64,000 nucleotides of DNA from assembly GCA_037439425.1 (NCBI GenBank), contig JBBIWA010000009.1:30822-94821 (forward strand), read 5' to 3'. The notes under the pieces were generated by a model. The model did not search any database and was not told where the DNA came from. It saw nothing but the letters and a program-made list of their open reading frames with translations. The position numbers and the translations under genes were made by a program. Below are positions 12,860-31,112 of this stretch, one piece after another (position 1 is the first letter of the stretch; each line of letters begins with the position of its first letter). The DNA comes from Acidobacteriota bacterium (GTDB lineage Bacteria > Acidobacteriota > Blastocatellia > RBC074).

Positions 12860-13921
12860 TTACGGCCGCGCATCGCGACCTGGTGAGGAACGGTTGATGG
12901 GGGGACGGGGTGATGTCATTCTGTAGGGTGGCGTTGCGGCGCGCGGGGGAATGATTTCCAGCGTCGGCCAGGAGCCGGTCGCTGGCGGGAAGACCGGAAC
13001 TGAGATGGAATAGTCCGGTACCACCGAGCTTGCAGTCAGCAAACGCCCTGATTCCGCTTCTCCGACATTGAAGACTGCGCCAAGGATCGGTCGTCCTTGC
13101 GTCTCCGTGATGCTCATCCAGCCGGTACGGTTTTGCGGAATGAGAAGGTTTTCAATGCCGCGCGCTAGAGCATGCAGGGTGGCATAACGCTGCGCGCCGA
13201 TTCTCACGCGCAGCAACTGCGAATCCCCGCCGCTGGAAAAGAGCGTCGCAGTCGCCACGCTCTGCAGCAGGTTGCTGGCGGTGATGTCCTCAGGCAAAGT
13301 CAGCAACATCAGCCTGGTCACATTGAAACCATTCACCTGACTGGGAATTGAATCCACGACGAGCTGGCCGGGCAAAGCCGTATATGTTACTCCATCGAAG
13401 CGCAGCGCAGCCGTGCGACCATCCGCGCTGAGCGCGGCAACTCCCTCCCTCAATTTCTGCACTGCGAAGGCTGGGATATTGGCGCGCACGCCATGCTGAT
13501 CGTTGATGGTCTCGCTGCCGATCAAGACATTGGCCTTCGTGGGCGCGCCAGTCCAATCCACGACGGTGACCATCAGATACCCCTGAATATCCGGGTCCAC
13601 ATCACTGGCCAGGAAGGTGAGCGATTGCAGCGACTGGAGCGTGAATGAATAGCTGTGAATCTCACCGCTGAGGCCAGAGACGAAGAAGAGTCGCACGCTG
13701 AGATAACCGAGGCCGGTGTTGGTCAAGACAAATCTGGTGTCTTGAAGCTGCCTGTTGGCGCTGTGACTGGTATAGAACGGATAGATCAGGATGCTGCCTG
13801 GCATGTTGGTCAGTGACGGCTGAGCCGCCTGCGCTGCGACTGTAGTGGGCAGCAGGTAAATCGCCAGGAGGAAAAAGACCGCGGCAGTGAGGTGCGCTCG
13901 AGCTGAGCTGCGTTGAATCAT
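12860..13921 (-). CDS. Hypothetical secreted protein
   Basis: Long ORF with a clear signal peptide (MIQRSSARAHLTAAVFFLLAIYLLPTTVAAQAAQ). No domain recognised. Confidence 0.6.
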   Translation of the reverse strand: MIQRSSARAHLTAAVFFLLAIYLLPTTVAAQAAQPSLTNMPGSILIYPFYTSHSANRQLQDTRFVLTNTGLGYLSVRLFFVSGLSGEIHSYSFTLQSLQSLTFLASDVDPDIQGYLMVTVVDWTGAPTKANVLIGSETINDQHGVRANIPAFAVQKLREGVAALSADGRTAALRFDGVTYTALPGQLVVDSIPSQVNGFNVTRLMLLTLPEDITASNLLQSVATATLFSSGGDSQLLRVRIGAQRYATLHALARGIENLLIPQNRTGWMSITETQGRPILGAVFNVGEAESGRLLTASSVVPDYSISVPVFPPATGSWPTLEIIPPRAATPPYRMTSPRPPINRSSPGRDARP

Positions 13922-14578
13922 TCGGTTCTCCGTTTTTCAAAGAGGGGCTGGCCTGGCAAAACGGCGCATCTGGCGGTTGGCGAGAGGGCGCGGGCCCTCA
14001 GACTGAGGGGGCGAACGCAAGAGACACAAGCATGCGCTTGCAGCCTCGCCTGAGGTGGCCGGTTCTGGGGAAACGGCCGCGCCTGATAGCTTTTTCTGGC
14101 AGGGCGATTTAATGTCCCGGAGCAGGACTCGGTAGTGGGGGCAGTATAGCGAAAAGCAGCGGCTCGAGTCTATCAGAATTTTTTGAGCGGGCTACTACGG
14201 CCGGTGCCGGCCGGCTCATTCAAGACAGAGTGGGAGAATTGGTCTCCCCTTCTCCCCTTCTCCCGCTCGGCCTGAGGGACTCTTGGGTGTGCCAGGTAGG
14301 AGTTGGTAGAAAAAGGAGGGTGCAGTTTTCTGCGGGTGGAGTTTTCTAAAGTTGGTCAAGCCAGCCTCGGAATCTGCCTAGGTGTGAGGCATAGGTGAGA
14401 AGATAGCGGTCTTCTCAAGTCGGTCAAGCCGCATTATAGGATCTGGCGCGAAGGCTCTTGCCACACGCCGTTGAAGAGATCAGCGCGCAGGCCAGCCTTG
14501 TGTGGAGCTCTCTCTTCTGAGCGAGGCCATTCCCGGTAGCTTCAATCTGGCTCCGGTCAGGTAGTAGCCTGATTAGTT

Positions 14579-14669
14579 GTATAAGTGTAACGGTATGAGT
14601 AATGGCTGCCGCAGTGAGCAGCCAGCAGCGAGCAGTGCTGTATGAGTGTAACGGTATGAGTAATGGCTG
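14579..14669. repeat. Two direct copies of a 30-nt motif (gtatRagtgtaacggtatgagtaatggctg) about 60 nt apart
   Basis: Seen directly at 14579..14608 and 14640..14669 inside the long 13922-15098 spacer. Confidence 0.7.
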
Positions 14670-14785
14670 TCGCCCGTTTCACGGGCTGGGAATCATTTGT
14701 CCATCCCCTCCCAGGGTTACGCGCTGCGCGCTCCAAGCTGGGCTTTAAGCTGCTGCCCGCATTCGCGGGCTGTGGAATGGACCAT

Positions 14786-15006
14786 CAGCCCGCGCACGCG
14801 GGCAACAGTATAGAGCCTGGGGTGACTTGCGGATTGCGGATTGCGGGTTTGCCAGGCAGGCGACAGCTTGCTGTGATCGGTTGGGCTCTTTTTTCAGCCC
14901 GCGCAGGCGGGCAACAGCATAGAGCCTGGGGTGCAAACCCCAGGAACGAGCAACCACCAAATCGAGCGAGCCCGCGCACGCGGGCGATAGCACATAGCCT
15001 GGGGTG
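14786..15006. repeat. Three copies of a 39-nt palindromic-core repeat (cagcccgcgcacgcgggcaacagtatagagcctggggtg), with a degenerate fourth upstream. Spacers are 70 and 34 nt. CRISPR-like in appearance but not called CRISPR
   Basis: Repeats at 14786..14824, 14895..14933 and 14968..15006, with a degenerate copy at about 14753. Each carries a gcccgcgcacgcgggc hairpin and is followed by a second small hairpin. Spacing is irregular and no cas genes are in the window. Confidence 0.6.
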
Positions 15007-15063
15007 CAAGCCCCAAAACGAGCTTGATACCTACCAAGTCCTACTTGGCGCACCGGGGGCTCT

Positions 15064-15092
15064 TTGCTCATTAGGGGCGAGAGCGGTAGAAT
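15064..15092 (+). promoter_or_regulatory. Putative sigma70-type promoter (TTGCTC-17 nt-TAGAAT) 6 nt upstream of the ATG, implying a leaderless or near-leaderless mRNA for the RDD gene
   Basis: Hexamers read directly: -35 at 15064..15069, -10 at 15087..15092, ATG at 15099. Confidence 0.35.
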
Positions 15093-15098
15093 CCGGCT

Positions 15099-15932
15099 AT
15101 GGCCGAGGAGACTCTGATCATCGAAACGCCCGAACATGTTCAATTGCATTTCGCGCTTGCCACGATTGGCAATCGGTTCCTCGCCTGCTTTATCGACCAC
15201 GCGCTTCAGGCACTGGCGATAGTGATGACCTTCATTCTGGCTTACAATCTGAGCGCGGGGGTGCGCCGCTTGAGTGATCAGGCGGTCAGTGGCCTCGAAG
15301 AAGGTAGTTTGTGGATTCTGGCGCTGGCGGTGCTGGCAATCTTCGGGCTTTACTTTGGGTACTTCGCCATCTGGGAAACGCTCTGGAGTGGGCAGACTCC
15401 AGGCAAGCGGTGGCTCAAGCTGCGCGTCATCAAAGATGATGGTCGCCCGCTGGATTTCTTCGCGGCGCTGACGCGCAATCTGCTACGCCTAGCCGACATG
15501 ATGCCGATGATTCCGCCGCTGCCATTCTATTCGGTCGGGATTGTCTCGGTCTTCGCCAGCACCCACTCAAAGCGCCTGGGCGATTTCGTCGCGGGCACAG
15601 TGGTCATTAAAGAACGCAGCGCCGAAGCCCCTTCCTTTGATGAGGTCTTTGAGAGCGCAGTGATTGATACAGCAATGCGCCGGGTAGCCCCGGCGGTTGA
15701 TTTCCGCGCTGATGTGCGCCTGCTTGCGCCCACAGAGATCGAAGTGGTCGAGGCTTTTCTGCGCCGACGTTACGATCTGCCAGAGGATCCGCGCCAATGG
15801 CTCGCCTGGCGCATTGCCACGCCGCTGCTGGAGAAGCTCCGTCCCTACTACGACCCCAATAATTTCAATTACGAAGGCTTCCTGGAAGAACTCCTCGCCC
15901 GTTACCGCGCCCAAGTCAGGTATCGCGAGTAA
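15099..15932 (+). CDS. RDD family membrane protein
   Basis: N-terminal RDD-like domain (FLACFIDHALQALAIVMTFIL ... RLGDFVAGTVVI) with TM helices, plus a C-terminal soluble extension. Confidence 0.7.
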   Translation: MAEETLIIETPEHVQLHFALATIGNRFLACFIDHALQALAIVMTFILAYNLSAGVRRLSDQAVSGLEEGSLWILALAVLAIFGLYFGYFAIWETLWSGQTPGKRWLKLRVIKDDGRPLDFFAALTRNLLRLADMMPMIPPLPFYSVGIVSVFASTHSKRLGDFVAGTVVIKERSAEAPSFDEVFESAVIDTAMRRVAPAVDFRADVRLLAPTEIEVVEAFLRRRYDLPEDPRQWLAWRIATPLLEKLRPYYDPNNFNYEGFLEELLARYRAQVRYRE

Positions 15933-18046: not shown

Positions 18047-19117
18047 CTATTCTGCCGCGCGCGCTATCTCCAGAAACTCTTGCAGCTCGGCAGGCAGCGG
18101 CGCGGTGAAGCTTAGGCTTTCGCCGCTGGTTGGATGGGTGAAGGCGAGCTGAGCTGCGTGCAAGAAGGGGCGGCCAAGCCTCGTTATGCTAGCGCGCAAT
18201 CGCGAGTTTTTGATCGCGTTGGCGCGACCACAATCATAGGTCGAATCGCCAACGACCGGATGTTTGATATAAGCCAGATGGACGCGAATCTGGTGCGTGC
18301 GCCCGGTCTTGGGCTCAAGCTCCAGCAGAGTGAACTCTCTTAGTCGCTCCCTCACCCGATAAAGCGTCAGCGCCGGACGCCCTTGCCCCGCGCTTCTGAC
18401 AGCCATCTTCACGCGACTGCGTGGATGGCGGCCAATCGGCGCCTCAATACGGCCTTCACTAGCAGTTACTCTCCCATAGACCAGCGCCACATAGCCTTTG
18501 AAGACCTGCCGCATCTCGAACTGTTCAGCCAGATTGAGATGAGCGCGGTCACTCTTGGCCACGACGATCAAACCTGAAGTCCCGGCATCGAGCCGATGCA
18601 CAATCCCAGGCCGCACTGCGCTGCAGCTTTGTGAAAGCTGGCCGAAGTGATAGACGAGCGCATTGGCCAGTGTGCCTGAGTTTACGCCCGCTCCGGGATG
18701 GACCACCATTCCCGCCGGTTTGTCGATCACAATGAGCTCATCATCTTCGTAGACGATCTCGAGCGGAATCGGTTCGGGCGCTGCTTCAAGCGGTGCGGCT
18801 TCCGGCAGCTCAAGCTGAACGCAATCGCCTGCGCGCACCTTGTAGCTGGCTTTAACCATGCGATCGTTGACCAGGATGTCACCGCTTGCTATCGCCCGTT
18901 GAATGCGAGCGCGGCTCGTGCCGGTCAGGATTGCTGCAAGGAATGAATCAAGCCTGGTTCCGGCAGCTTCGGCGGGAACACTTCTAGAAGGGGAGAGCGG
19001 AAGAGCGGGAGAGTGGGAGACCAACTTCTCCCCCACTTCTGTACCATCAGGAACTTCTTCGGTTCTCCTGGTCTCCGGTTCTCCCGCTCCGGAAGTTGAG
19101 CTGCTCGGCCCTCCCAT
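18047..19117 (-). CDS. RluA-family 23S rRNA pseudouridine synthase (RluD/RluC-type, S4 domain plus catalytic domain)
   Basis: S4-like RLDSFLAAILTGTSRARIQRAIASGDILVNDRMVKASYKVRAGD, then VVHPGAG...RPGIVHRLDAGTSGLIVVAKSD (catalytic Asp motif). A 45-aa low-complexity N-terminal extension makes the true start uncertain. Confidence 0.85.
   Translation of the reverse strand: MGGPSSSTSGAGEPETRRTEEVPDGTEVGEKLVSHSPALPLSPSRSVPAEAAGTRLDSFLAAILTGTSRARIQRAIASGDILVNDRMVKASYKVRAGDCVQLELPEAAPLEAAPEPIPLEIVYEDDELIVIDKPAGMVVHPGAGVNSGTLANALVYHFGQLSQSCSAVRPGIVHRLDAGTSGLIVVAKSDRAHLNLAEQFEMRQVFKGYVALVYGRVTASEGRIEAPIGRHPRSRVKMAVRSAGQGRPALTLYRVRERLREFTLLELEPKTGRTHQIRVHLAYIKHPVVGDSTYDCGRANAIKNSRLRASITRLGRPFLHAAQLAFTHPTSGESLSFTAPLPAELQEFLEIARAAE

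Positions 19118-31036: not shown

Positions 31037-31112
<76 letters not shown>

What the first reader, a model, noticed from the sequence alone, without database searches (positions are those of the whole stretch)
13922..15098. 1.18-kb gene-less divergent spacer packed with direct repeats and a CRISPR-like trio of 39-nt palindromic repeats
No ORF with protein-like features spans this region; the listed ORFs at 14663-15277 and 14745-15200 are repeat read-throughs. It contains three groups of repeats. First, gttggtcaagcc half-repeats at 14350-14430. Second, two 30-nt direct repeats at 14579 and 14640. Third, three 39-nt repeats (14786, 14895, 14968) with a degenerate fourth at 14753. Each 39-nt repeat carries a gcccgcgcacgcgggc stem followed by a cctgggg..cccc(agg) hairpin. 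The spacers are 70 and 34 nt, and a T6 run precedes the second repeat. A spacer this long and this structured between a secreted-protein gene and an RDD gene suggests an unannotated non-coding RNA, a decayed mini-CRISPR, or a cluster of REP-like elements.
Basis: seen in the sequence. Interest (0 to 1): 0.6.

Follow-up and report, generated by a model that had tools for sequence, protein, structure and literature searches.

The report
REP-like hairpin repeat cluster, not CRISPR
The "CRISPR-like" repeats are five copies of a small two-hairpin DNA repeat that is scattered through soil Acidobacteria genomes and, in related genomes, flanks a small single-strand-DNA transposase gene, so this is an ordinary, strain-specific patch of selfish palindromic repeats and not a CRISPR array or a new RNA gene.

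Summary
The repeats are real, but the unit is 49 nt, not 39. It is AGCCCGC-GNNN-GCGGGC, a 12-nt linker, then CCTGGGG-GNRA-CCCCAGG. The window holds three direct copies (14787, 14896, 14969), one inverted copy (14710-14771) and one inverted half-unit (14664-14687).

A covariance model built only from other genomes scores these at 65, 47, 43, 36 and 19 bits, and finds nothing else in the 64 kb. The family is dispersed in Acidobacteriota MAGs (Blastocatellia, Pyrinomonadaceae), with 243 hits in 650 kb of repeat-selected loci. The hairpins covary strongly.

It is the Rfam motif Acido-Lenti-1 (RF01687), read on the opposite strand. The window copies fall below threshold (24 and 18 bits against 37), but identical-type units elsewhere pass.

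In relatives the units form A-B-B'-A' palindromic composites. In 10 loci these enclose or flank a 148-aa Y1 (HUH) transposase. Six of those loci were chosen by protein alone, and all six carry the units. That is a REP/RAYT-like arrangement.

Three syntenic loci with more than 90% identical RDD proteins lack the whole 845-nt segment 14216-15060. Only the two ends of the spacer, which carry the promoters, are conserved.

Verdict: a REP-like cluster. CRISPR is excluded and an sRNA is unlikely. Mobilisation by the transposase is inferred, not shown.

The parts
13922..14215 (-). Conserved upstream region of the minus-strand gene 12860-13921. It contains a promoter-like TAGACT-18-TATACT at 14172-14143. 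It is not part of the repeat cluster.
   Evidence: 84-86% identical to L172 and L173, apart from one indel at 13994-14030.
14216..15060 (.). Window-specific 845-nt segment. It holds every repeat named in the finding. In three close-relative loci it is replaced by about 123 nt of unrelated sequence.
   Evidence: Alignment and BLAST against the syntenic loci L172, L173 and L174.
14341..14430 (+). Two 22-nt direct repeats, GTyTTCTmAAGTyGGTCAAGCC, at 14341-14362 and 14409-14430. Their function is unknown and they are not part of the dispersed family.
   Evidence: family D2. No match in any fetched locus.
14578..14673 (+). A 61-nt tandem duplication that gives two 35-nt repeats, at 14578-14612 and 14639-14673. 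The second copy runs into half-unit B'.
   Evidence: family D3, 94% identical. A resemblance to the 3' end of Y1 genes was tested and is no better than chance.
14664..14687 (-). Half-unit B': hairpin GCCCGTGAAACGGGC followed by GACAGC, with no second hairpin.
   Evidence: R1 model 18.6 bits, E 0.0034. The DNA fold z-score is -3.5. The same module is the inner element of A-B-B'-A' composites in other genomes.
14710..14771 (-). Full unit A', inverted. Its second hairpin is of the long type (CCCAG...CTGGG).
   Evidence: R1 42.7 bits, E 2.5e-9. With A1 it forms a 32-nt, 81% complementary inverted doublet (pair I2). The DNA fold of 14735-14825 gives -29 kcal/mol, z -5.05.
14787..14857 (+). Full unit A1. 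Its second hairpin is expanded by (TTGCGGA)x2.9 at 14827-14846.
   Evidence: R1 36.1 bits, E 1.2e-7. Tandem Repeats Finder result. Fold.
14860..14874 (.). GCGACAGC-TT-GCTGT. This may be a remnant of a B/B' centre (compare ...CGGGCGACAGC GCTGTCGCCCG... in L027).
   Evidence: Read directly from the sequence. It is short and was not tested statistically, so this is inference only.
14896..14944 (+). Full unit A2, the best-preserved copy. Its second hairpin is CCTGGGGT-GCAA-ACCCCAGG.
   Evidence: R1 65.1 bits, E 5e-15. RF01687 scores 24.2 bits on the minus strand. DNA fold -18 kcal/mol, z -5.04.
14969..15017 (+). Full unit A3. The foot of its second hairpin is eroded (CC/AA).
   Evidence: R1 46.9 bits, E 2.1e-10. 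RF01687 scores 17.9 bits on the minus strand.
15061..15098 (+). Conserved promoter-like region of the RDD gene: TTGCTC (15064-15069), 17 nt, TAGAAT (15087-15092), then 6 nt to the ATG. The mRNA is probably leaderless, so the repeats lie upstream of the promoter and not in a 5' UTR.
   Evidence: 92% identical to L172 and L173. TAGAAT also lies just before the ATG in L117 and L118. The site is below the threshold of the promoter scanner.

Best explanation
Window 14664-15017 is a mosaic cluster of five modules of a REP-like palindromic repeat family of Acidobacteriota. Rfam catalogues the same family, on the other strand, as the Acido-Lenti-1 motif.

The full unit (A) is two GC-rich hairpins joined by a conserved 12-nt linker, GRCAGCATAAAG. 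A half-unit (B) has only the first hairpin plus GACAG. In related genomes the modules are arranged A-(about 23 nt)-B-[centre]-B'-(about 23 nt)-A'. The centre is either short, giving a non-autonomous REPIN/MITE-like element, or it holds a 148-aa Y1 HUH transposase gene, giving a REPtron-like element.

The most likely mechanism is as follows. The hairpins extrude on single-stranded DNA, for example on the lagging-strand template. The Y1 enzyme, acting in trans, recognises them and cuts and rejoins at them. This copies or moves units and builds clusters such as this one.

At this locus the cluster sits inside an 845-nt strain-specific segment, between two divergent genes and upstream of both conserved promoters. 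It therefore probably has no dedicated function here.

Shown here: family membership, hairpin covariation, association with the transposase gene in relatives, and absence from three close-relative loci.

Inferred: mobilisation by the Y1 enzyme, the single-stranded-DNA mechanism, and the presence of a cognate Y1 gene in this genome.
For: Family membership. Model R1 was built from 20 units of other genomes. It scores the window copies at 65.1, 46.9, 42.7, 36.1 and 18.6 bits, and the next best hit in the 64 kb is 14 bits. The pattern GCCCGCNNNNGCGGGCNNYAGYNYANAG hit more than 115 stretches, nearly all in Acidobacteriota MAGs. R1 gives 243 hits in 650 kb of those loci, against 2 in 285 kb of control loci chosen by the RDD gene.

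Structure under selection. 98.6% of cells pair, 11 of 14 pairs carry changes on both sides, there are 196 compensatory cells, and 0 of 500 shuffles reach this.

Link to Acido-Lenti-1. RF01687 passes its gathering score on the same A units in L021 and L054, on the opposite strand to R1, and on sister units in L014 and L079. The published seed alignment shows the same two-hairpin, 12-nt-linker layout and tandem periods of 74 and 110-115 nt (PMC2864571).

Transposase link. PF01797 Y1_Tnp, E 1.6e-27, lies between inverted A-B/B'-A' modules in L039, L051, L091 and L099. Six of six Y1 homologs chosen by protein similarity alone have A and B units within about 140 nt of the gene and nowhere else in the 4.6-6.5 kb fetched.

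Absence from three close-relative loci. L172, L173 and L174 have the same gene order and RDD proteins more than 90% identical, but spacers of 528 or 505 nt with no unit.

Assembly behaviour. An independent short-read assembly breaks inside copy A2.

Taxon. The closest named homologs of a window housekeeping protein are all from Blastocatellia or Acidobacteria.
Against: The window copies themselves do not reach the Rfam gathering score (24.2 and 17.9 bits against 37).

Only 64 kb of this genome is visible. It holds one cluster and no Y1 gene, so neither copy number nor a cognate transposase is shown for this organism.

The unit lacks the GTAG or CGTC tag of classical REPs. The associated protein is IS200-like by NCBIfam (76.9 bits), not the RayT equivalog (22.3 bits against 80).

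No transposition event, cleavage site or target duplication of the A/B units was observed.

GNRA-type loops, a conserved purine-rich internal loop in the long form, and a 28:9 excess of G.T over A.C pairs would also fit an RNA-level role.
Confidence: 0.75

Rival explanations
1. The units are genes for a small structured RNA, as Rfam classifies Acido-Lenti-1. They would be transcribed and act in trans or in cis as RNA.
For: RF01687 gives sub-threshold hits here and passes its gathering score on sister units. Covariation is strong. On the '+' pattern strand the hairpin-2 loops are GTGA, GTCA, GTAA and GCAA, and the long form keeps a UGRA/GNAA internal loop. G.T outnumbers A.C by 28 to 9 on one strand. 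The published seed alignment gives 38 to 8 for the same strand.
Against: Units occur in both orientations within one composite. They flank a transposase gene. They are absent from the orthologous spacer of three close-relative loci. No promoter or terminator accompanies the units. Here they lie upstream of both conserved promoters. The better-pairing strand is the reverse of the one Rfam models, so even the RNA reading is unsettled. Hairpin covariation and asymmetric loops are also expected for single-stranded-DNA sites of Y1 enzymes.
Confidence: 0.1
2. The locus is a decayed or miniature CRISPR array.
For: There are three direct repeats with a palindromic core. RF01356 CRISPR-DR28 gives a partial match of 21.1 bits, below its gathering score of 35.
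Against: Spacing is 109 and 73 nt and copy identity is 81-87%. There are two inverted copies. The CRISPR-DR28 match covers only the 16-nt GC palindrome. The family occurs as 1-5 units in both orientations at more than 100 loci in many genomes. No cas domain is found in the genes from -5 kb to +8 kb. The units flank a Y1 transposase, not cas genes.
Confidence: 0.01
3. The cluster is kept by the host for a local function. Examples are a supercoiling or protein-binding site, or an insulator between the two divergent promoters, as proposed for some E. coli BIMEs.
For: The cluster sits between divergent genes. REP/BIME elements in enterobacteria bind IHF, gyrase and Pol I (background cited in PMC6006769). 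The spacing between modules is conserved at about 23 nt while its sequence is not.
Against: Three close-relative loci with the same two genes and the same conserved promoters lack the whole segment. One unit is disrupted by a 7-mer expansion and another has an eroded stem. No binding motif was identified.
Confidence: 0.1
4. The 845-nt segment is a fossil REPtron. In this reading a Y1 transposase gene once lay at 14216-14663, just before B'-A', and has since decayed.
For: B'-A' has the orientation seen downstream of Y1 genes. The window-specific sequence to its left is 448 nt, and a Y1 gene is 447 nt.
Against: A profile of 107 Y1 proteins finds nothing in six frames of the spacer; the best scores are negative. 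tblastn finds nothing. The resemblance of the 35-nt repeat to Y1 3' ends is matched by 10% of random windows. No A-B module lies on the left side.
Confidence: 0.05

Closest known systems
Acido-Lenti-1 RNA motif (Rfam RF01687; Weinberg et al. 2010, PMC2864571)
   Same: It has two hairpins joined by a 12-nt linker with conserved (G)GCU(A/U)U next to one stem. It is found in Acidobacteria and PVC bacteria. It is multi-copy, with tandem periods of about 74 and 110-115 nt. A units with the same first hairpin and linker as the window copies pass the gathering score in L021 and L054.
   Different: The window copies score only 24.2 and 17.9 bits against a threshold of 37. Rfam models the opposite strand and calls the motif an sRNA. 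Here the units belong to palindromic composites that flank a transposase gene. Both my alignment and the published seed pair better on the reverse of the Rfam strand.
REP/BIME/REPIN elements with RAYT (TnpA-REP) transposases; REPtrons (Nunvar 2010; Bertels & Rainey 2011, PMC3116915; Ton-Hoang 2012; Quentin 2018, PMC6006769)
   Same: These are short extragenic palindromic units in many copies. They form inverted doublets and mosaic clusters. A Y1 HUH transposase gene is flanked by the units in inverted orientation. The Y1 gene is syntenic between genomes. Presence or absence varies between relatives.
   Different: There is no GT[AG]G or CGTC tag. The unit is a double hairpin with a partner half-unit. 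The protein has the subclass 1.2 signature (DHVH, WQ, YIARQKEHH, 148 aa), not the class 2 Y---NP signature. It misses the NCBIfam RayT cut-off. Quentin 2018, Table 1, lists 'REP: no' for subclass 1.2.
IS200/IS605 insertion sequences and their hairpin-ended MITEs (PATEs)
   Same: They use a Y1 HUH transposase (NCBIfam NF033573, 76.9 bits; the closest PDB sequence matches are IS608 and ISDra2 TnpA). They have subterminal hairpins, and the chemistry is presumed to act on single-stranded DNA.
   Different: IS200/IS605 ends are not inverted repeats; both hairpins lie on the same strand. Here the flanks are inverted, the gene is syntenic in different MAGs, and the hairpin units far outnumber the gene.
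TIRtrons/TIRYTs and class 3 TnpA-Y1 of Acidobacteria (Di Nocera 2013, PMC3733652; Quentin 2018)
   Same: These are acidobacterial Y1 genes flanked by inverted repeats or 'atypical secondary structures' that can be abundant. About 600 copies are reported in Solibacter usitatus, and one TIR family in Koribacter versatilis.
   Different: The TIRYT motif GGGGWSAS fits only A1 among the window's direct copies A1-A3. TIRYTs are long proteins with HTH tails (subclass 2.1). Class 3 proteins have NHVH and YV..EQ motifs and a CnGA foot. The protein here is subclass 1.2.
CRISPR arrays
   Same: Both have direct repeats with a palindromic core, separated by short unique spacers.
   Different: Spacing is irregular, some copies are inverted, the family is dispersed, there are no cas genes, and the units are associated with a transposase.

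Membership tests
CRISPR array | Three or more near-identical direct repeats at regular spacing with spacers of similar size | tested here: not met
   Copies are 81-87% identical with start-to-start spacing of 109 and 73 nt. Two further copies are inverted.
CRISPR array | The repeat is confined to arrays and usually lies near cas genes | tested here: not met
   The family is found as 1-5 units in both orientations at more than 100 loci. Genes from -5 to +8 kb encode sulfatase, hydrolase, RDD, DUF1232, Uma2, RluA, methyltransferase and GT4 proteins. The rest of the 64 kb was not screened for cas genes.
Rfam RF01687 Acido-Lenti-1 | Covariance-model score at or above the gathering threshold of 37 bits | tested here: not met
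   The window copies score 24.2 and 17.9 bits on the minus strand. A units of the same type score 37.4 (L021) and 38.3 (L054), and sister units score 42 (L014, L079).
Rfam RF01687 Acido-Lenti-1 | Architecture: an 8-bp hairpin with a 4-nt loop, a 12-nt linker, and a second short hairpin | tested here: met
   The cmscan alignment spans the full model, positions 1-46. The DNA fold of 14896-14944 gives exactly this structure. The layout matches the published seed alignment.
Rfam RF01687 Acido-Lenti-1 | Taxon is Acidobacteria or Lentisphaerae; the motif is multi-copy and often tandem | tested here: met
   The closest named homologs of the window's RluA protein are from Blastocatellia or Acidobacteria. 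Family hits are in Acidobacteriota, plus Akkermansia and Verrucomicrobiia. Tandem periods of about 72 nt are seen in L005, L047 and elsewhere.
REP / REPIN-RAYT (REPtron) | Short extragenic palindromic units present in many dispersed copies per genome | tested here: inconclusive
   This is met in related MAGs, where several contigs of the same assembly are hit, for example DASVXV01, JAYUAQ01 and JANPFP01. For the window's own genome only 64 kb is visible and it holds one cluster. A short-read contig break inside A2 hints at repetition.
REP / REPIN-RAYT (REPtron) | Units form inverted doublets and mosaic clusters | tested here: met
   A'/A1 form an inverted doublet in the window (pair I2). A-B-B'-A' composites were found in at least 14 of 115 loci by a strict pattern.
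REP / REPIN-RAYT (REPtron) | A Y1 HUH transposase gene is flanked by the units in inverted orientation | tested here: met
   This is met in relatives only. Four loci were found from the repeat side. Six of six loci found from the protein side carry the units. No Y1 gene is present in the window.
REP / REPIN-RAYT (REPtron) | A conserved GT[AG]G (or CGTC) tetranucleotide at the foot of the hairpin | tested here: not met
   Units begin yAGCCCGC, and no GTAG or CGTC tag appears in 143 aligned units.
REP / REPIN-RAYT (REPtron) | The transposase is a class 2 RAYT (Y---NP motif; NCBIfam NF047646 at or above 80 bits) | tested here: not met
   NF047646 scores 22.3 bits and NF033573 (IS200/IS605) scores 76.9 bits. 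Of 107 homologs, 106 carry Y...Q..HH and none carries Y...NP.
REP / REPIN-RAYT (REPtron) | The transposase cleaves and rejoins its cognate units, so the units are mobile | not testable with these tools
   The only indirect evidence is absence from three close-relative loci and genome-specific subfamilies of units.
IS200/IS605 insertion sequence | Left and right end hairpins lie on the same strand, with no terminal inverted repeats; the element is itself multi-copy | tested here: not met
   The flanks are inverted, A B gene B' A'. The Y1 gene is syntenic in L164/L165 and in L163/L167. Copy number per genome was not measured.
Intrinsic terminator | A GC-rich hairpin followed by a U tract | tested here: not met
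   The scanner finds none at the units. The T6 run lies before unit A2, not after it, and the genes on both sides point away from the cluster.

The most novel reading that the evidence does not exclude
Acido-Lenti-1 (RF01687), filed as an sRNA for 15 years, may instead be the DNA-level partner (a REP/REPIN analogue) of the subclass 1.2 Y1 transposases. The 2018 survey of this superfamily listed that subclass as having no associated REP. The functional strand would then be the reverse of the one Rfam models. This would define a new REPIN-RAYT-type system in Acidobacteriota and PVC bacteria, built from a double-hairpin unit plus a half-unit at fixed spacing of about 23 nt. The window would hold one of its satellite clusters.
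Probability: 0.55. Interest if true: 0.5.

Novelty: new member of a known kind. Interest (0 to 1): 0.33.

Why it matters
For this locus it matters little. It explains an odd 1.18-kb spacer as two conserved promoter regions plus a strain-specific patch of selfish palindromic repeats. It also removes a false CRISPR or ncRNA lead.

More broadly, three points follow.

- It gives a concrete, testable identity to an Rfam motif of unknown function. Acido-Lenti-1 units flank a Y1 transposase in 10 of 10 loci examined.
- It suggests that the motif's annotated strand and its 'sRNA' type should be revisited.
- It supplies a candidate cognate repeat for the subclass 1.2 Y1 proteins, which were described as lacking one.

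Such repeats also break short-read assemblies of soil Acidobacteria, as seen here.

Tried and rejected
1. CRISPR. Rejected on spacing, orientation, dispersal and the lack of cas genes nearby.

2. Other Rfam families. The gathering scan of the window finds only a tRNA at 31038. The permissive hits to mir-4504, mir-2008, DnaX and others are long-hairpin artefacts of the A'/A1 inverted doublet.

3. Fossil Y1 gene in 14216-14663. tblastn, a 107-sequence HMM on six frames, and a test of the 35-nt repeat against Y1 3' ends were all negative or at chance level.

4. A recurrent neighbour gene other than the transposase. All-against-all clustering of 2243 ORFs from 115 loci found only common acidobacterial families (kinases, histidine kinases, Calx-beta, caspase-DUF4384). 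None was consistently adjacent to the units.

5. Conservation of the spacer in distant RDD loci (L117-L121). Upstream synteny is lost, so these loci are uninformative, apart from L117 and L118, where the TAGAAT box was read.

6. Homology of 13922-14660 to anything fetched. None was found.

7. The outer TIR motif CTTGTCATTACCCA seen around composites in other genomes. It is absent from the window.

8. Strand assignment from wobble pairs. The counts are suggestive (28 to 9, and 38 to 8 in the published seed), but the copies are related, so they are not independent.

The source genome itself was not retrieved, so its copy number is unknown.
Full report
**What is in the sequence.** The spacer between the minus-strand gene 12860-13921 (no Pfam family) and the RDD gene 15099-15932 is 1177 nt long.

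The '39-nt' repeat is really a 49-nt unit, which I call A. It consists of A-GCCCGC-GNNN-GCGGGC, then a 12-nt linker (AACAGCATAGAG here, GRCAGCATAAAG in the family), then CCTGGGGT-GCAA-ACCCCAGG. There are three direct copies:

- A1 at 14787-14857. Its second hairpin is swollen by (TTGCGGA)x2.9.
- A2 at 14896-14944.
- A3 at 14969-15017.

The 'degenerate fourth copy' is a full unit on the opposite strand (A', 14710-14771). A further half-unit lies at 14664-14687 on the minus strand (B'); it has the first hairpin plus GACAGC only. The stem 17-mer and the second-half 18-mer occur nowhere else in the 64 kb, and 0 of 100 shuffles reach the observed counts.

**Is it a known RNA?** At gathering thresholds Rfam finds only a tRNA in the window. 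A permissive scan gives sub-threshold hits of RF01687, Acido-Lenti-1, to A2 and A3 on the minus strand (24.2 and 17.9 bits; gathering score 37). These hits span the full model.

The published seed alignment (PMC2864571, supplement) shows the same layout of two hairpins and a 12-nt linker. It also shows many copies per genome, with tandem periods of 74 and 110-115 nt. The window spacings are 73 and 109 nt.

**The family elsewhere.** A degenerate pattern for the first hairpin plus linker hit more than 115 stretches in the species-representative genome collection. Nearly all were Acidobacteriota MAGs (Blastocatellia, Pyrinomonadaceae, Chloracidobacterium), with a few Akkermansia and Verrucomicrobiia.

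I built a covariance model, R1, from 20 short-type units of other genomes, with no window sequence included.

- R1 scores the window modules at 65.1, 46.9, 42.7, 36.1 and 18.6 bits. The next best hit in the 64 kb is 14 bits.
- R1 finds 243 hits in 650 kb of the pattern-selected loci.
- R1 finds only 2 hits in 285 kb of control acidobacterial loci chosen through the RDD gene.
- On 143 distinct units, 98.6% of cells pair and 11 of 14 pairs carry changes on both sides. No shuffle out of 500 reaches this.

RF01687 passes its gathering score on A units of exactly this type in L021 and L054. The coordinates are the same as the R1 hits but on the opposite strand. It also passes on sister units with other stems in L014 and L079. 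The window copies are therefore eroded members of the family that Rfam calls Acido-Lenti-1.

**Architecture and the transposase.** In other genomes the modules are arranged A-(about 23 nt, not conserved)-B-[centre]-B'-(about 23 nt)-A'. This is a large palindrome whose arms share the hairpins but not the spacers.

In L039, L051, L091 and L099 the centre is a 148-aa ORF with PF01797 Y1_Tnp, E 1.6e-27. I ran the reverse test by searching with the protein, which gave 3117 homologs at E<=1e-20. I then fetched six of them on long contigs, chosen without regard to repeats. All six have A and B units within about 140 nt of the gene and nowhere else in the 4.6-6.5 kb fetched.

The genes in L164 and L165 share upstream neighbours, and those in L163 and L167 share a downstream neighbour. 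The gene therefore looks vertically inherited rather than hopping.

By sequence the protein is IS200-like: NCBIfam NF033573 scores 76.9 bits, the RayT equivalog scores 22.3 bits against a cut-off of 80, and the closest PDB sequence matches are IS608 and ISDra2 TnpA. Its motifs are DHVH, WQ and YIARQKEHH. Of 107 homologs, 106 have Y...Q..HH and none has Y...NP. Together with the 148-aa length, these match 'subclass 1.2' of Quentin et al. 2018, whose Table 1 lists no associated REP for that subclass (PMC6006769).

Inverted hairpin flanks around a Y1 gene, plus many gene-less doublets and clusters, is the REPtron/REPIN pattern. It is not the IS200/IS605 pattern, in which both end hairpins lie on one strand.

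**The locus in close relatives.** Exact-sequence look-ups showed that the window lies on a 127-kb NCBI contig. They also showed that RDD proteins more than 90% identical exist on other contigs.

Three such loci (L172, L173, L174) keep the same gene order, but their spacers are 528 or 505 nt. The alignment breaks down as follows:

| Window region | Status in relatives |
|---|---|
| 13801-13993 and 14031-14215 | conserved, 84-86% identity |
| 15061-15198 | conserved, 92% identity |
| 14216-15060 (845 nt) | window-specific; replaced by about 123 nt of unrelated sequence |

No R1 hit occurs in these relatives' loci.

The conserved ends carry the plausible promoters. On the minus strand, TAGACT-18-TATACT lies at 14172-14143. 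On the plus strand, TTGCTC-17-TAGAAT ends 6 nt before the RDD ATG, and TAGAAT is also seen in L117 and L118. The repeats therefore lie outside both transcription units, as far as can be inferred.

**Mechanism.**

- Shown: membership of the family, selection for hairpin formation, physical association with a Y1 HUH transposase gene in relatives, and absence from three close-relative loci.
- Inferred from what is established for IS608/ISDra2 TnpA and E. coli TnpA-REP (as reviewed in PMC6006769): the hairpins form on single-stranded DNA, the Y1 enzyme recognises them in trans, and it cuts and rejoins there. This spreads units and builds mosaic clusters.
- Not shown: that this genome encodes the enzyme, where cleavage occurs, or that any unit has moved.

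**RNA versus DNA.** Several features would suit an RNA:

- The loops on the 'pattern' strand are GNRA-like (GTGA 15, GTCA 14, GTAA 11, GCAA 6).
- Long-form units keep a UGRA/GNAA internal loop.
- G.T pairs outnumber A.C pairs 28 to 9.

The same features also suit a strand-specific single-stranded-DNA site. The published Acido-Lenti-1 seed has 38 A.C against 8 G.U cells on the strand Rfam models. The better-pairing strand is therefore the reverse of the Rfam orientation in both data sets. The copies are related, so these counts are not independent.

**What remains unexplained.** The 448 nt at 14216-14663, which contain the 22-nt and 35-nt repeats, have no homolog in anything fetched. They show no Y1 remnant. 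Their length and position mimic a Y1 gene in front of B'-A', but the one sequence resemblance I saw does not beat chance.

The locus itself is ordinary. The by-product may be worth a specialist's look: Acido-Lenti-1 units flank subclass 1.2 Y1 transposase genes in 10 of 10 loci examined, and they pair better on the non-Rfam strand.

Noticed in passing
L006 626/937, L043 3760/4069, L051 228/977, L053 4643/4942, L059 5946/6268, L078 1123/1467; also L015, L025, L035, L047, L085: An outer inverted repeat, CCTTGTCATTACCCA(A/C)AT, brackets many hairpin composites, including ones that contain the Y1 gene, 20-45 nt outside the A units. In L006, L043 and L078 the 7-8 bases outside the two copies are direct repeats (TTGAAACC, GCTTACGC, ATATTGT), like a TIR plus target-site duplication. 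In other loci the motif cuts an A unit off right after AAAGCC. This looks like a second, cut-and-paste-type element that carries or targets the hairpin repeats. It is absent from the window.
   Followed up: partly
published RF01687 seed alignment (PMC2864571, supplement 183) and alignment A2: On the strand Rfam models, the seed has 38 A.C and 8 G.U cells. On the reverse strand my 143 units have 28 G.T and 9 A.C. The Rfam orientation of Acido-Lenti-1 may be the wrong one.
   Followed up: partly
window 15064-15101: TTGCTC-17 nt-TAGAAT ends 6 nt before the ATG of the RDD gene. TAGAAT is conserved in relatives down to 77% protein identity (L172-L174, L117, L118). The RDD mRNA is probably leaderless.
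   Followed up: partly
window 13994-14030 versus L172 3542-3654: Inside the otherwise conserved upstream region of gene 12860-13921, the relatives carry about 75 extra nt. These include a hairpin, CCTCTCTCGCG-TTCA-CGCGAGAGG, and a CT-rich run. The window has 37 unrelated nt instead, so this is a second variable spot in the same spacer.
   Followed up: no
L164 and L165 1052-2865; L163 1967-4584 and L167 3795-6447: The Y1 transposase genes of different MAGs sit next to the same neighbours: PRC-domain and acyl-CoA dehydrogenase genes upstream in one pair, and a TIR-WD40 gene downstream in the other. Conserved position suggests a domesticated, vertically inherited gene.
   Followed up: no
L024 3923, L062 7961, L066 3132, L015 4541: Units of the same family, with the same first hairpin and linker but another second stem (GCAGGGG...CCCCTG), occur in Akkermansia and Verrucomicrobiia MAGs. 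This extends the family to PVC bacteria, in line with the 'Lenti' half of the Rfam name.
   Followed up: no
L001 (Logan SRR11582143 contig), start = window ~14929: An independent short-read assembly of the same sequence ends inside unit A2. The repeats break de Bruijn-graph assemblies.
   Followed up: no
L086 2974-4623 and 6 other loci (L008, L019, L037, L038, L052, L071): A caspase (Peptidase_C14)-DUF4384 protein recurs next to the repeat units in seven loci. This may reflect only shared ancestry of the MAGs.
   Followed up: no
L117 5850-5945: The RDD-upstream spacer of an 80%-identity relative carries a different long palindrome, GGACCGCGGATGCGGCGG...CCGCCGCCTCCGCGGTCC. Spacers upstream of this gene seem to collect palindromic repeats of several kinds.
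   Followed up: no
window 14243-14264 and 18995-19032: A CT-rich octamer run, (TCTCCCCT)x2.8, lies in the window-specific segment. It has an 84% match over 38 nt to a site about 4.7 kb downstream, inside or near the RluA-type gene. The sequence is low in complexity and the match is probably chance.
   Followed up: no
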